Shown here one piece after another: positions 9,601 to 12,600 of a stretch of DNA of 64,000 nt; within the stretch, counting starts at the first letter, position 1; every line of letters begins with the position of its first letter. Source of the stretch: Prorocentrum cordatum (taxonomy: Eukaryota); the NCBI GenBank assembly GCA_963575745.1, contig CAUYUJ010000195.1, forward strand, positions 1 to 64,000, written 5' to 3'. A program made the translations under genes and the position numbers. The notes beneath the pieces are model-generated. The model was not told the origin of the DNA. It made no database searches and worked only from the letters and a program-made list of their open reading frames with translations.

Positions 9601-12600
9601 GTAGTGACTTAGCTATTTGTACTACTTTTTTTCCCACGGGCCCTACGTTCTACGGTAGCAAGGGAGGTACCAGCAGGATCGACCATCTCCTTGTCTCAGC
9701 AGGCGCACTACCATATATTACTAACTGTGCATGCCTGTACGGGCCAGCCAAGAGATTGCAAAATATAAAGGCTAGAGGACACCGCGACCATCTCCCGCTT
9801 GGCATGGAAATTACAGTTAATATTTACCACCACCCGAAGCCAGAACGAGAGGAGAAGGTAGACAGGGACGGGCTGATGAAGTGCCTGAGGACGGGTTGGA
9901 AGAGGAGGGAGCTGTGCGAGGAGGTGGACATAAGGCTGCAGGAGAAAGAAGCAGAGTGGTCGACCTCCCTGGATAAGCTCTGGCCAGATGAAGCGTGGGC
10001 CCTCTTCATAGAAGCCGTGGGGGGAGCACTTAAGACAGTCTTCCCAGACCAGAATAACAAAAAAGACGAAATATATGAAACAGTAAAAAAAGAGATAATG
10101 AAGTTACTTGAACAGCGCCGACAGTGTAGAGAAGGATTGCAGCCAGAGATCGACGAAGAGCAGCTTGGCAGGATCAAGCTTGAGCTGAAATAGTACACGG
10201 CGGCGCTGAAAATGCTCAGGAATAAGGACCTTGCCAGGCGTAGGGAGGAGCTCGTCCAGGAAATCTGGGAGGCCTACCAGGACAGGAATTTCTCCCTCAT
10301 GCACCGTTTGAGAGTCCAGTATGCCAACAATGGAAGAGGACCCAAAAAAAGATACTACTACGCTCCGCAGACGTACTGGGATATTGAGACCTGGCAAACT
10401 GAGCTTGGGAAGAGGGCAGCAGAAGGGGTCATGTCGTGCACGCTTCTAGACTGGCAGCAGAACAGGGATATATATTACCAGTCGCACGATGACGAGCTGC
10501 TGCCTTTAGACGCAGACGTTCAGTCCTGGGCGAATGAGGACAAGATCGCGATTAGGAAATACCTCTCAAGAGCCAAGAAAAGGCGTGCCTATCCACCCTG
10601 GGGGTTACCTAAAGAGGCGTCCCTCCTCATTGTTGACCCGAAGGTTAATATGGAAAAGCCCAGCAGCCAGAGTGAAAGATGGGAAGCCAGGAAGATCAGG
10701 GAGGCGGAGGAGAAGGAGGAACAGGAGGAGCTAGATAAGTACACCACACTAGCTAAGTTCCAGGTTGGCAGGAAGCTGTTGGAGAAGATGGGGTGGAACA
10801 TCGGGGAGACGGTGGGAAGACGGCAGAGAGAGGTATCACTAAGAGAGCCAGCGGAGTTGGTGGAGGCGGAGGAGTGGGAGGCGGAAAGAGGAAGGAGAGC
10901 AGGTGTAGGAGCGAGCAACCTACGAAGCAACAGCTACGAGTTTGAAGGTAAGCTCATGGAGCTCCTCGTGCACACTCGGAGAACGAGATCGCTGGCCTTC
11001 GATGTCACGAAAGGGAACGGGAAGAAGGGCATAGGAGGGAGGAGGATCATGCACACGTATTGCAGCATGGGGATGGGATGGCATCACGGCATACACCGAC
11101 GTGCTCCGTATCGGCCTCGCCCTGTTTGGGCGCAGGGCGGACTGGCAGCGCGCTCCGGGGAGAGCGCTTTGATCTGCCTGCTCGGGAGTAAATGGAGGGC
11201 AGAGGTTGCAGGGGTGTCGATCGTCGTTGGCAATTATGACTGCACGAATGCATTCGCGGGTACATCACGTGAACCCCTCTGCGACCTTGTGGAGATGCAG
11301 GCTTTAGAGCGAGACAAGAAATTTGCAGTGGGAGCTATTGTCCATCAGTCGCTGACGATAAGAGCATCGAACGGCATGGCACACTTACAAAGCCACACGG
11401 GCACGCAGATGGGGTTCACACTTGCACCCAGGGACTTCAATGACATATACAATGAGCACGTCGAGGAGTGGGAGGAGGGGGAGCACGAGCACGGGCATCA
11501 CGAGCTACTAGAGACAGAGCACCCGATCACGAACACATACCACAACTTGTCTCTCAGCACGTTCATGGATGACATCACGAAGATACATGTGATTACAGAG
11601 GGTTGCAGCTCGGAAGTCATCACGCAGTTTCTGAACGATTCGACGCACAGGCTGGAAAAGGTCATCGAGAAAGGAGGGTGGACACTCAATGCTGGAAAGA
11701 CGAACCATCTTCTCTGTCTTCGAGGGGAGGGGAGTTACCAGGCAACCCGGAGGCTAAGAAGGTCTAAGGAGCTACACGGAGCTGCCTGCAGAGAGGTTCG
11801 GGTCCTGGGGCCATACATTCCGTCGGACCAGGGACTGCTCGGTGAAGTATCTCGGCGATGTGCTGCTGCAAAGATGGCGTGGAGACAATGTGGGGCTTTC
11901 TGGAAGGCACGAACAAGTAAGACAATAAAAAAGATGATGTTCGAGGCTTTCGTTACGGGAGCAGCTTACAGTGGTATGGTAGTATTCGTCCTCCCCCCGT
12001 CCCTGATTAAAGTTATCGACTCGACGTTAGCTAAGCTACTAAGATGTCTAGCAGAAGGAGACCTGAGTTGGACGGATGAAAAAGGTGAAACAAGATGCAG
12101 CACAAATAAAGAAGTATTTAAGTATTGGGGTCTCAACGACACAGACACAATTTTTCGAATGAGAAGGTTCAAATGGTACCAGGCGTGGGCTAAGTACTCA
12201 GAGCAGCACAGCGGAGTTCTCGCGGCTGTATTTGGAGACTCTCGCCTGGATCAGTTACGGCAGACCCCGAGGATGACCCCAGACAAGTACGTGTGGCCCC
12301 CAGGGAGTGCAGGTCAGTCTACTCCGTGGGCTGTCCAGTTTCGAGAGGACATGGACGAGCTTGCCCAGGTGGATGAGAGCATGTCGGTTTGGTATAATGC
12401 ACGTGCCAGCGACTTGGACATCTTCCTACCAGGTACCGAGGCACATGATAGATGGCCACTGGTCGATCCTCATATCCTAGGGAACACAAAGAAAAGAAGA
12501 AAGGTGGGTCCCGAGGGCCAGGAGAAGGAGGAGGAGGGCATCGCCGACGAGGAGGTTACACTGGAGGGGCTGGAAAAGCCATACTGGTGCGACCATCAGG

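What the first reader, a model, noticed from the sequence alone, without database searches (positions are those of the whole stretch)
10755..10910. G-patch-like motif inserted inside the reverse transcriptase of a non-LTR retrotransposon
Seen: KFQVGRKLLEKMGWNIGETVGRRQ...EP...RRAGVG lies in frame between RT region 0 (KKRRAYPPWGLPKE) and region 1-2 (TKGNGKKGIGGRRI), within a charged insertion of about 90 aa. Known: the G-patch consensus is GxxhLxKMGWxxGxGLG...P...GLG. G-patches activate DEAH RNA helicases (Prp43/DHX15, Prp2) and occur next to protease/RT in betaretroviruses and some LTR elements. I know of no established case inside a LINE RT. Inference: this element may recruit a host DEAH helicase to unwind GC-rich template RNA during target-primed reverse transcription. 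Caveat: the GxGLG core reads GETVG here.
Basis: partly seen in the sequence, partly recalled or inferred. Interest (0 to 1): 0.8.

Follow-up and report, generated by a model that had tools for sequence, protein, structure and literature searches.

The report
G-patch-like insert in LINE reverse transcriptase
A family of jumping genes (LINE retrotransposons) in a GC-rich alga carries, inside its reverse transcriptase, a conserved 70-residue insert that looks like the short motif cells and some retroviruses use to recruit and switch on an RNA-unwinding helicase.

Summary
At 10755-10910 (+), in frame between RT motif 0 (10575-10616) and motif 1-2 (11007-11060) of an APE+RT+C2H2 non-LTR element (9006-c.13937), lies a G-patch-like sequence. 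It sits in an insert of about 70 extra residues, not 90.

Pfam G-patch is the best or only match in 6 of 6 insert-bearing relatives that hold its first half, and in 0 of 21 relatives without the insert. All scores are below the cut-off of 22 bits, except the window's 100-residue excerpt at 23.5 bits.

On an RT tree the insert needs a single change (4 rows with, 35 without, 11 unknown) and marks one well-supported clade. Four lineages about 40% identical keep G-x2-hh-x3-G-W-x2-G-x3-G...G-h-G. These include the three positions whose mutation abolishes DHX15 recruitment in Mason-Pfizer monkey virus. One canonical glycine is always replaced.

Against a sibling contig the insert shows 5 synonymous and 1 non-synonymous change (pN/pS 0.05). 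AlphaFold2 gives a helix followed by a disordered loop protruding from a confident LINE-type RT fold.

This window copy is dead: one TAG and a 24-nt deletion. Helicase recruitment is inferred, not shown. I found no report of a G-patch in a non-LTR element. Verdict: new variant of a known kind.

The parts
9006..10190 (+). 5' part of the single long ORF. It holds the apurinic/apyrimidinic-type endonuclease (Pfam domain span 9036-9704). The start ATG at 9006 is inferred.
   Evidence: Exo_endo_phos_2 27.4 bits (cut-off 27.4) and Exo_endo_phos 24.9 bits (cut-off 24.5). The start is placed by likeness to the N-terminus of relative P0004.
10191..10193 (+). In-frame TAG that splits the APE and RT parts in this copy only.
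   Evidence: Sibling P0010 reads Glu here. The sibling contig's loose end in run X1 reads GAG (table 7). P0158 also reads Glu.
10194..12960 (+). Reverse transcriptase and C-terminal C2H2 zinc-finger part of the ORF. The end is approximate: the frame stays open to 13937 but looks out of frame after about 12960.
10575..10616 (+). RT motif 0 (N-terminal extension, RT0-loop equivalent), residues 128-141.
   Evidence: Conserved in relatives. It precedes helix 41-53 of the model.
10650..10892 (+). Clade-specific insert, about 70 residues net, with approximate borders. It comprises an acidic helix, the G-patch-like first half and a linker.
   Evidence: Spacing comparison. One change on the RT tree.
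10755..10817 (+). G-patch-like first half, K188-G208. It reads G-x2-hh-x3-G-W-x2-G-x-T-h-G. The predicted helix spans residues 185-198 (10746-10787).
   Evidence: Pfam match to res 191-211. G200, W201, G204 and G208 are invariant in four lineages. Helix H86-99 of the model.
10818..10892 (+). Poorly conserved linker, predicted disordered.
   Evidence: 17-38% pairwise identity. pLDDT is below 50 over model residues 106-143, which is window 10806-10919.
10893..10910 (+). RRAGVG: a G-h-G motif in the position of the last G-patch motif. It is family-wide, not part of the insert.
   Evidence: Present in nearly all insert-less relatives that cover the region. G-patch_2 and the S. pombe C1486.03 alignment reach it.
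10984..10987 (+). Site where this copy lacks 24 nt (8 codons) that siblings have.
   Evidence: table 4: 4+3+17 letters put in by X1 record 5. P0157 and P0087 carry the extra residues. See also the alignments.
11007..11060 (+). RT motif 1-2, residues 272-289.
   Evidence: Conserved across the family. Strands E167-173 and E184-190 of the model.
11562..11573 (+). RT active-site motif F-M-D-D, residues 457-460.
   Evidence: Read directly. Beta hairpin at model residues 355-368.
12615..12908 (+). C2H2 zinc fingers (Pfam stretches res 808-827 and 887-905).
   Evidence: sub-threshold. The family profile hits many C2H2 chains.
12763..13937 (+). 3' region. It holds a +1-frame ORF of 319 codons (12763-13722) with protein-like composition. 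Its TGA overlaps the ATG (ATGA at 13719-13722) of a 72-codon frame-0 ORF that ends at 13937. It probably belongs to the element, but its function is unknown.
   Evidence: The same +1-frame sequence is joined to pieces of the RT in gene model P0158 from another locus. No Pfam or PDB match.

Best explanation
The window holds one dead copy of an APE+RT+C2H2 non-LTR retrotransposon. One clade of its family acquired an insert of about 70 residues just behind RT motif 0, on the side where the not-yet-copied template RNA enters. The insert is an acidic helix, then an amphipathic helix ending in G-W-x2-G-x3-G, then a disordered linker. The linker runs into a G-h-G loop that the whole family already had. 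Together these read as a divergent G-patch.

Most likely mechanism (inferred): like cellular G-patch cofactors and the G-patch of Mason-Pfizer monkey virus, the peptide tethers and activates a host DEAH-box helicase of the Prp43/DHX15 kind on the element's RNP. Such helicases move 3'->5' on single-stranded RNA, which is the direction in which the RT traverses its template. A helicase held at the template entry could therefore clear structure or bound proteins ahead of the polymerase, or help assemble the RNA-protein particle.

Shown here: the insert, its position, its restriction to one clade, its conservation, purifying selection, and its helix-plus-disorder character.
Inferred: homology to the G-patch (about 0.7) and helicase recruitment (about 0.45).
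For: 1. Pfam G-patch is the best or only hit in 6 of 6 insert bearers that include the first half: P0001 19.6 bits, P0135 14.6, P0140 13.8, P0153 13.4, P0154 14.7, P0158 15.3. It is found in 0 of 21 insert-less relatives at E<=1.

2. PDB sequence searches. With the window excerpt, 3 of 5 hits are G-patch proteins, the best being GPATCH1 at E 0.007. With a four-lineage profile, 4 of 5 are (SUGP1 0.021, GPATCH1 0.035, S. pombe C1486.03 0.077, SUGP1 0.093). The S. pombe alignment runs from the helix to the final G-h-G.

3. ESM Atlas. G-patch clusters are the top hits for the window insert (0.90; 17 of 30 hits; named clusters only). They are also top for lineage C's insert, unfiltered (0.87).

4. 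The consensus quoted in PMC11459146 is Gx2hhx3Gax2GxGlG...x10-16 GhG. The LINE matches every position but one. M-PMV Y880, G883 and G887, needed for DHX15 uptake and RT activity, correspond to W201, G204 and G208. These are invariant in all four lineages.

5. Conservation pattern. The first half is 43-52% identical between lineages A, B and C, like RT motif 1-2 at 46-56%. The linker is 17-38%.

6. Purifying selection. Against X1 record 5 the insert has 5 synonymous and 1 non-synonymous change, pN/pS 0.05, binomial p 0.002.

7. One change on the RT tree. The insert bearers lie in a clade with support 99/94.

8. AF2 (pLDDT 85.5, pTM 0.80). There is a helix at the brace-helix position, then residues with pLDDT below 50, protruding from an R2/LINE-1-like RT.

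9. In related RTs, the N-terminal extension and RT0 loop lie over the upstream template (PMC8363836, passages). DEAH helicases translocate 3'->5' (PMC11459146, introduction).
Against: - Every whole-protein Pfam score is under the gathering cut-off. Only a post-hoc 100-aa excerpt passes (23.5 vs 22). The G-patch_2 scores are also under cut-off.
- The canonical middle glycine of GxGlG is T, T, M or A in all four lineages.
- The spacer to the last G-h-G is 28, 27, 27 and 23 residues. The quoted consensus implies 20-26.
- That G-h-G predates the insert. The 'complete' G-patch is therefore a composite, which fits convergence as well as capture.
- The best hit of the profile search in the PDB was a non-G-patch charged coiled-coil protein (RIB43, E 0.0057).
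- Atlas scores are at or under 0.9, which the tool calls leads only.
- The lineages share ancestry, so their hits are not independent.
- The selection test rests on one 407-nt contig and six changes.
- No helicase was tested. No RNA evidence was obtained.
Confidence: 0.5

Rival explanations
1. The insert is a conserved, functional extension of the RT's N-terminal region that handles nucleic acid directly. It would act as a flexible, glycine-hinged lid or extra RNA-binding arm at the template entry, without any helicase partner. Its likeness to the G-patch would then be convergent or vestigial.
For: - It sits next to the RT0 region, which in related RTs forms a lid over the template backbone (PMC8363836, passages).
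- The G-h-G it joins is an old feature of this RT family.
- One hallmark glycine is missing and the spacer is long.
- All whole-protein Pfam scores are sub-threshold.
- Recalled, not read here: G-patches were first proposed as nucleic-acid binders. [quoted passage not shown]
Against: The residues kept invariant are the ones that matter for helicase recruitment in M-PMV. The insert as a whole is acidic rather than basic around the helix, which is not what a direct RNA binder would suggest.
Confidence: 0.25
2. Chance resemblance. The insert is a conserved clade-specific segment with some other role, such as a protein-protein contact, localisation or regulation. The G-patch label would be an artefact of a short glycine/aromatic pattern.
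For: - Sub-threshold scores, with E-values of 0.02-0.08 in the other lineages.
- PDB E-values of 0.007-0.6.
- Atlas scores are in the range that 4 to 10 in 100 shuffled proteins reach.
- In a scan of very many windows, an E of about 1e-3 arises by chance.
Against: - Three different methods all rank G-patch first.
- The match survives about 55% divergence because the conserved columns are the hallmark columns.
- It is absent from 21 of 21 insert-less relatives.
- Predicted helix-then-disorder is the known G-patch habit (PMC11459146 section 6).
Confidence: 0.2
3. A neutral passenger: a captured scrap of host mRNA carried along without function.
For: Non-LTR RTs can template-switch and pick up foreign RNA (general knowledge; PMC8363836, abstract).
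Against: - pN/pS of 0.05 in the insert.
- Retention in four lineages about 40% identical, with the same invariant residues.
- No sibling contig skips it: no joints. This is weak, because the runs are contigs.
Confidence: 0.05

Closest known systems
[quoted passage not shown]
   Same: Both are retroelement-encoded G-patch-type peptides placed just N-terminal of, or in, the RT. Both are unstructured with an N-terminal helix. The viral one recruits host DHX15 and is needed for genomic RNA packaging and for RT activity. Its Y880, G883 and G887 are needed (PMC11459146, sections 6 and 10). The equivalent W, G and G are invariant here.
   Different: - Here it lies inside the RT's N-terminal extension of a non-LTR element, not between domains of an LTR-type polyprotein.
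- One canonical glycine is replaced.
- The last G-h-G is an older motif of the RT family.
- No helicase binding has been shown.
- There is no capsid into which RNA would be packaged.
G-patch (PF01585) found in plant Ty3/Gypsy LTR-retrotransposon consensus sequences
   Same: Another acquisition of the domain by a retrotransposon. It was reported in seven plant species, or 16 with a looser filter (PMC9289625, passages).
   Different: Those are LTR elements, and they pass Pfam detection in that study. The position relative to the RT was not read here. No function has been tested.
Cellular G-patch cofactors of DEAH helicases (GPATCH1, NKRF, SUGP1, S. pombe C1486.03)
   Same: They are the best PDB sequence matches. 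They share the helix, G-aromatic, G...G and final G-h-G layout.
   Different: Those are single motifs in disordered regions of RNA-processing proteins. Identity is low, the E-values of 0.007-0.6 are weak, and the spacer is shorter.
Non-LTR RTs with solved structures: Bombyx and avian/turtle R2, human LINE-1 ORF2p
   Same: The RT fold matches: Foldseek E 1.5e-11 to 4e-08, probability 1.00. The family profile hits the R2 protein 9nl2_A at E 4.6e-5. An APE endonuclease lies upstream, as in LINE-1.
   Different: - About 12-14% identity.
- Pfam RVT_1 does not detect the window copy.
- The C-terminal fingers are C2H2.
- None of those RTs has an insert like this behind motif 0. This rests on my reading of the family alignment only; the solved structures were not inspected residue by residue.

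Membership tests
G-patch domain (Pfam PF01585 / PF12656) | Score at or above Pfam's gathering cut-off | tested here: inconclusive
   Whole frame 19.6 bits against 22. The 100-aa excerpt scores 23.5 against 22. G-patch_2 scores 16.4 and 20.7 against 26. Five other insert bearers score 13.4-15.3 bits.
G-patch domain (Pfam PF01585 / PF12656) | N-terminal amphipathic 'brace' helix followed by G-aromatic, G at +3 and G at +7. The last three are the positions whose mutation abolishes DHX15 uptake in M-PMV. | tested here: met
   G-x2-hh-x3-G-W-x2-G-x3-G in four lineages. Helix at model residues 86-99. Requirement read in PMC11459146, section 6.
G-patch domain (Pfam PF01585 / PF12656) | Middle glycine of GxGlG (aromatic +5) | tested here: not met
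   T, T, M and A in the four lineages.
G-patch domain (Pfam PF01585 / PF12656) | Terminal G-h-G at the consensus distance, which the quoted consensus puts at 20-26 residues after GxGlG | tested here: inconclusive
   G-h-G is present in all four lineages. Distances are 28, 27, 27 and 23 (counted). The motif predates the insert.
G-patch domain (Pfam PF01585 / PF12656) | Lies in an intrinsically disordered stretch | tested here: met
   pLDDT below 50 for model residues 106-143, within a model of mean pLDDT 85.5. This is a prediction only.
G-patch domain (Pfam PF01585 / PF12656) | Binds and stimulates a DEAH/RHA helicase | not testable with these tools
Non-LTR (LINE) retrotransposon with APE endonuclease | APE-type endonuclease N-terminal of the RT in one ORF | tested here: met
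   Exo_endo_phos_2 27.4 bits (cut-off 27.4) and Exo_endo_phos 24.9 bits (cut-off 24.5). It is in the same frame as the RT, and siblings read through the TAG.
Non-LTR (LINE) retrotransposon with APE endonuclease | RT of the non-LTR/group II type with N-terminal extension (motif 0) and an xxDD active site | tested here: met
   Foldseek top hits are R2 and LINE-1 ORF2p. Profile hit to R2. F-M-D-D at residues 457-460. Pfam RVT_1 itself missed the window copy, and found 4 of the 21 insert-less relatives below cut-off.
Non-LTR (LINE) retrotransposon with APE endonuclease | Multiple dispersed copies; 3' tail and target-site duplication | tested here: inconclusive
   Many sibling fragments occur in public data. 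The window holds only one copy. No poly(A) or duplication was recognised at the 3' end. The element ends were not mapped.

The most novel reading that the evidence does not exclude
A clade of LINEs has built a working helicase-recruiting G-patch into its own reverse transcriptase. It did so by inserting a brace helix and glycine hinge next to a G-h-G loop the enzyme already had, at the template entry. This would be a third, independent retroelement acquisition of the G-patch, after betaretroviruses and plant Ty3/Gypsy elements. It would be the first in which the helicase would be harnessed directly to a target-primed reverse transcriptase.
Probability: 0.4. Interest if true: 0.75.

Novelty: new variant of a known kind. 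Interest (0 to 1): 0.6.

Why it matters
Non-LTR retrotransposons are thought to rely on their own RT for processivity on structured templates. Host helicases appear in their biology mainly as interactors or restriction factors.

A LINE that encodes its own helicase-cofactor peptide would show that recruiting a DEAH helicase is a recurrent solution among retroelements. It has been shown for M-PMV (PMC11459146). The same domain has been seen, with no function tested, in plant Ty3/Gypsy elements (PMC9289625).

It would also give a compact natural module (RT plus G-patch) for testing whether helicase coupling improves reverse transcription. And it would be an example of a linear motif assembled partly from pre-existing enzyme sequence. 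If the likeness is only convergent, the insert still marks a conserved, selected modification of the RT's template-entry region.

Tried and rejected
- Whole-genome search: no genome is held for this window.
- Other copies in the window: none (tblastn).
- Earlier scan findings: nothing on this genome or sequence, and the word search gave only unrelated LINE notes.
- Metagenome contig scan with the insert alignment: 511 pattern matches, none confirmed. No DNA of diverged relatives was obtained, so there is no codon-level test between lineages.
- Sequencing runs: no RNA holder listed. The runs laid were all contigs, so depth, expression and absence of insert-less copies cannot be judged. The spike at 10686-10767 is the GAG/GGA low-complexity stretch shared with unrelated contigs.
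- PDB sequence search with the RT core alone: no hit. Only the family profile found R2.
- Pfam on 42 other long, non-repetitive ORFs of the window: no family. So there are no neighbouring genes of note and no DEAH helicase here.
- The +1-frame 3' ORF: no Pfam or PDB match.
- Complex prediction: not run. The tool's references cover bacteria, archaea and phages.
- Dinoflagellate genomics review PMC11453091: passages searched, nothing on LINE domains.
- Host identity: left open. Sources label close siblings with two very different algae: EukProt 'Pyramimonas sp. CCMP1952' and NCBI 'Prorocentrum cordatum'.
- First regex attempt to measure motif spacing was too strict, giving 1 row. It was replaced by phmmer anchors and the alignment.
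Full report
**What is there**

On the + strand, one reading frame runs from about 9006 to 13937. It is interrupted only by a TAG at 10191-10193.

- The 5' part is an APE-type endonuclease. Exo_endo_phos_2 scores 27.4 bits, at its cut-off, and Exo_endo_phos scores 24.9 against 24.5.
- The rest is a divergent reverse transcriptase followed by C2H2 fingers.
- Pfam RVT_1 misses the window copy, and the RT core alone finds nothing in the PDB by sequence.
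- A profile of 61 family members hits the R2 retrotransposon protein (9nl2_A, E 4.6e-5) and many C2H2 finger chains.
- An AlphaFold2 model of 10491-12350 built on that alignment has pLDDT 85.5 and pTM 0.80.
- Its best Foldseek matches are Bombyx R2 (8gh6_A, 1.5e-11), human LINE-1 ORF2p (9hdo_A, 2.4e-11), further R2 and LINE-1 entries, then group II intron RTs.
- The active-site F-M-D-D is at residues 457-460.

The family is large: 1228 representative proteins at E<=1e-3, and 69 at E<=1e-30.

**This copy is dead**

- Sibling protein P0010 (93% identical) reads Glu where the window has TAG. A sibling contig's loose end in run X1 reads GAG there (table 7).
- The window also lacks 24 nt at about 10984-10987. 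X1 record 5 puts these in (4+3+17 letters, table 4), and siblings P0157 and P0087 encode them.
- It is the only copy in the window.

**The observation**

The quoted peptide is in frame. K188-G208 is 10755-10817 and RRAGVG is 10893-10910. It lies between motif 0 (10575-10616) and motif 1-2 (11007-11060).

| Query | Pfam family | E-value | Bits | Cut-off |
|---|---|---|---|---|
| Whole 1247-aa frame | G-patch | 8.8e-4 | 19.6 | 22 |
| 100-aa excerpt 10650-10950 | G-patch | 5.4e-5 | 23.5 | 22 |
| Whole frame (res 176-241, profile 2-58 of 61) | G-patch_2 | 0.0096 | 16.4 | 26 |
| 100-aa excerpt | G-patch_2 | 0.00043 | 20.7 | 26 |

By Pfam's own rule the match is therefore borderline.

**Is it an insert, and where did it arise?**

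I measured the distance from motif 0 to motif 1 on alignment A2.

- It is 139 residues in the window.
- It is 56-83 in 34 of 35 relatives that cover the interval without the insert.
- It is 108 in one (P0037), which has unrelated extra sequence.

So the extra material is about 70 residues, not about 90.

Nearly all insert-less relatives carry a short basic-x-G-h-G motif at the homologous place. The window's RRAGVG is that family motif, so the last 'G-patch' element predates the insert.

The tree used 175 RT columns downstream of the insert and 50 of the 61 rows. Eleven rows covering fewer than 110 residues were dropped. Among them are P0135, P0140, P0153 and P0154, whose lineages are represented by the overlapping fragments P0156 and P0155.

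- The tree places the insert bearers in a clade of six rows with support 99/94.
- The two other rows of that clade (P0029, P0094) are fragments that do not reach the insert.
- With such unknowns left out (4 with, 35 without, 11 unknown), the trait needs one change.
- Two of the four 'with' states are direct: the window and P0026. These two alone span the clade's basal split.
- Two are inferred from overlapping fragments of the same lineages.
- The root is not inferred. Given that the clade is nested among many insert-less lineages, a single gain is the economical reading.

**Is it a G-patch?**

Four lineages carry the insert: A (the window), B (P0135), C (P0140, P0153, P0154) and D (P0026, P0159). 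They are about 40% identical to each other. All of them read G-x2-hh-x3-G-W-x2-G-x-[T/M/A]-h-G, then 23-28 residues, then G-h-G.

The consensus printed in PMC11459146 is Gx2hhx3Gax2GxGlGx3pxux3sx10-16GhG. The LINE sequence fits every hallmark except two:

- The middle glycine of GxGlG is missing.
- The spacer is slightly long in three of the four lineages.

Pfam results across the family:

- G-patch is the best or only match in 6 of 6 insert bearers that include the first half.
- P0026 begins mid-motif and gives nothing, so the count is 6 of 7 overall.
- It is found in 0 of 21 insert-less relatives at E<=1.

PDB sequence searches:

- With the window excerpt, 3 of 5 hits are G-patch proteins: GPATCH1 0.007, NKRF 0.54, SUGP1 0.64. 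The other two are DCN1.
- With the four-lineage profile, 4 of 5 are: SUGP1 0.021 and 0.093, GPATCH1 0.035, S. pombe C1486.03 0.077.
- The top hit of the profile search (RIB43, 0.0057) matches the acidic helix, not the motif.

The ESM Atlas ranks G-patch clusters first for the window's insert (0.90; 17 of 30 hits; named clusters only). It does the same for lineage C's insert without a filter (0.87). The tool rates such scores as leads.

None of these is decisive alone, and the lineages are not independent. The match survives divergence because the conserved columns are the hallmark columns. The first half is 43-52% identical between lineages A, B and C, like RT motif 1-2 at 46-56%. The linker is 17-38%.

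**Selection**

Logan contigs of four coded runs were laid on 10194-11400.

- X1 record 5 (407 nt) spans 10650-11030, which covers the whole insert. It shows 13 differences, 12 of them listed, plus the 24-nt insertion.
- X3 record 23 (178 nt, a different study) covers 10740-10917 with 3 differences.
- No joint skips the insert. This is weak evidence, since these are contigs.

| Region | Synonymous | Non-synonymous | pN/pS | Binomial p |
|---|---|---|---|---|
| Insert (res 153-239) | 5 | 1 (E227A) | 0.05 | 0.002 |
| All 12 listed differences of record 5 | 8 | 4 | 0.14 | 0.0012 |
| 40 best-supported variants (of 118) over 10194-11400 | 25 | 15 | not computed | 1e-7 |

For the last row the neutral expectation is about 23% synonymous. 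The numbers for the insert are small and rest on one contig, but they point to purifying selection on the insert while the two sibling lineages diverged.

**Structure and place in the enzyme**

In the model (model residue n is residue n+99 of the frame), the sequence after motif 0 runs as follows:

- a helix at 41-53;
- the insert's acidic helix at 59-74, and a short helix at 78-82;
- a helix at 86-99, which covers the hh-x3 part, the position of the G-patch 'brace helix';
- from 100 to 149, coil apart from a four-residue helix at 110-113, with pLDDT below 50 at 106-143;
- a helix at 150-161 and the first RT strands.

This helix-then-disorder habit is what PMC11459146 (section 6) describes for the M-PMV and cellular G-patches.

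In group II intron RT, the N-terminal extension with its RT0 loop forms a lid over the upstream template. The same surface binds the incoming template (PMC8363836, passages). By homology of motif 0, the insert emerges at that side of the enzyme. This is an inference; the model's coordinates could not be inspected.

**Mechanism proposed**

[quoted passage not shown] Substitutions at Y880, G883 and G887 reduce DHX15 in virions. The G-patch/DHX15 complex is needed for genomic RNA packaging and for RT activity (abstract, sections 6 and 10). Those three positions correspond to W201, G204 and G208 here, which are invariant in all four lineages.

DEAH helicases translocate 3'->5' on single-stranded RNA (same paper, introduction). 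This is the direction in which an RT traverses its template.

The best-supported explanation is therefore that the insert tethers and activates a host DEAH helicase at the template entry of the LINE RT, or on the LINE RNP.

- Shown: the insert, its clade restriction, conservation, selection, and helix-plus-disorder prediction.
- Inferred: G-patch homology (about 0.7) and helicase recruitment (about 0.45).

The rivals are a direct nucleic-acid-handling extension, a chance likeness with another role, and a neutral passenger. The last is disfavoured by the selection data. The element is 54-56% GC, below most of the window.

**Comparison and novelty**

G-patches are known in betaretroviral Pro/Pol. 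They have also been reported in plant Ty3/Gypsy consensus sequences (PMC9289625, passages).

Four full-text searches found no paper describing one in a non-LTR element, judged from titles, abstract starts and the passages read:

| Terms | Papers |
|---|---|
| G-patch + non-LTR retrotransposon | 3 |
| G-patch, LINE, reverse transcriptase, dinoflagellate (3 of 4 required) | 797, of which 20 listed |
| G-patch + retrotransposon + LINE + ORF2 | 1 |
| G-patch + non-LTR | 5 |

The library lacks most subscription journals, and no repeat database (e.g. Repbase) could be searched, so prior description cannot be excluded.

Because one hallmark glycine is not met and the Pfam cut-off is not clearly passed, I file it as 'G-patch-like': a new variant of a known kind, not a proven member.

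**Host**

Sources label the 92-93% identical siblings 'Pyramimonas sp. CCMP1952' (EukProt). They label a chimeric gene model that contains the insert 'Prorocentrum cordatum' (NCBI). Lineages C and D come from unnamed ENA assemblies. I leave the host open.

Noticed in passing
window 12763-13937: After the zinc fingers, the main frame turns into Arg/Gly-rich, out-of-frame-looking sequence. A +1-frame ORF of 319 codons (12763-13722) has normal protein composition. Its TGA overlaps an ATG (ATGA at 13719-13722) that opens a 72-codon frame-0 ORF ending at 13937. The same +1-frame sequence is spliced to RT pieces in gene model P0158 from another locus. Distant relatives (P0003, P0004) also end in long Arg/Gly-rich tails. 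This suggests a conserved downstream ORF reached by frameshift or by stop-start coupling. No Pfam or PDB match.
   Followed up: partly
window 10893-10910 and relatives: The whole LINE family, with or without the insert, keeps a basic-x-G-h-G-(Y/F) motif about 20 residues behind RT motif 0. Its role in the RT is unknown, and the region is low-confidence in the model.
   Followed up: partly
whole window: Outside the element the window is dominated by trinucleotide and other tandem repeats. Examples are a roughly 3.4-kb GTA-type array at 40252-43674 and a 90-bp repeat x13 at 4117-5285. None of 42 other long non-repetitive ORFs has a Pfam family.
   Followed up: partly
P0005, P0008, P0010, P0157 (EukProt) against P0158 (NCBI): Near-identical copies of this element are filed under a prasinophyte label (Pyramimonas sp. 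CCMP1952) and a dinoflagellate label (Prorocentrum cordatum). One of the data sets may be mislabelled or contaminated, or the element is shared. Not pursued.
   Followed up: no
window 10686-10767: The GAG/GGA-rich stretch that encodes the acidic helix attracts very high word depth from unrelated contigs in all four runs laid. This is a low-complexity artefact to keep in mind for any read-based copy counting.
   Followed up: no
P0037 (relative): One insert-less relative has a different, unrelated expansion at the same site (108 residues between motif 0 and motif 1). The loop behind motif 0 therefore seems to tolerate insertions.
   Followed up: no
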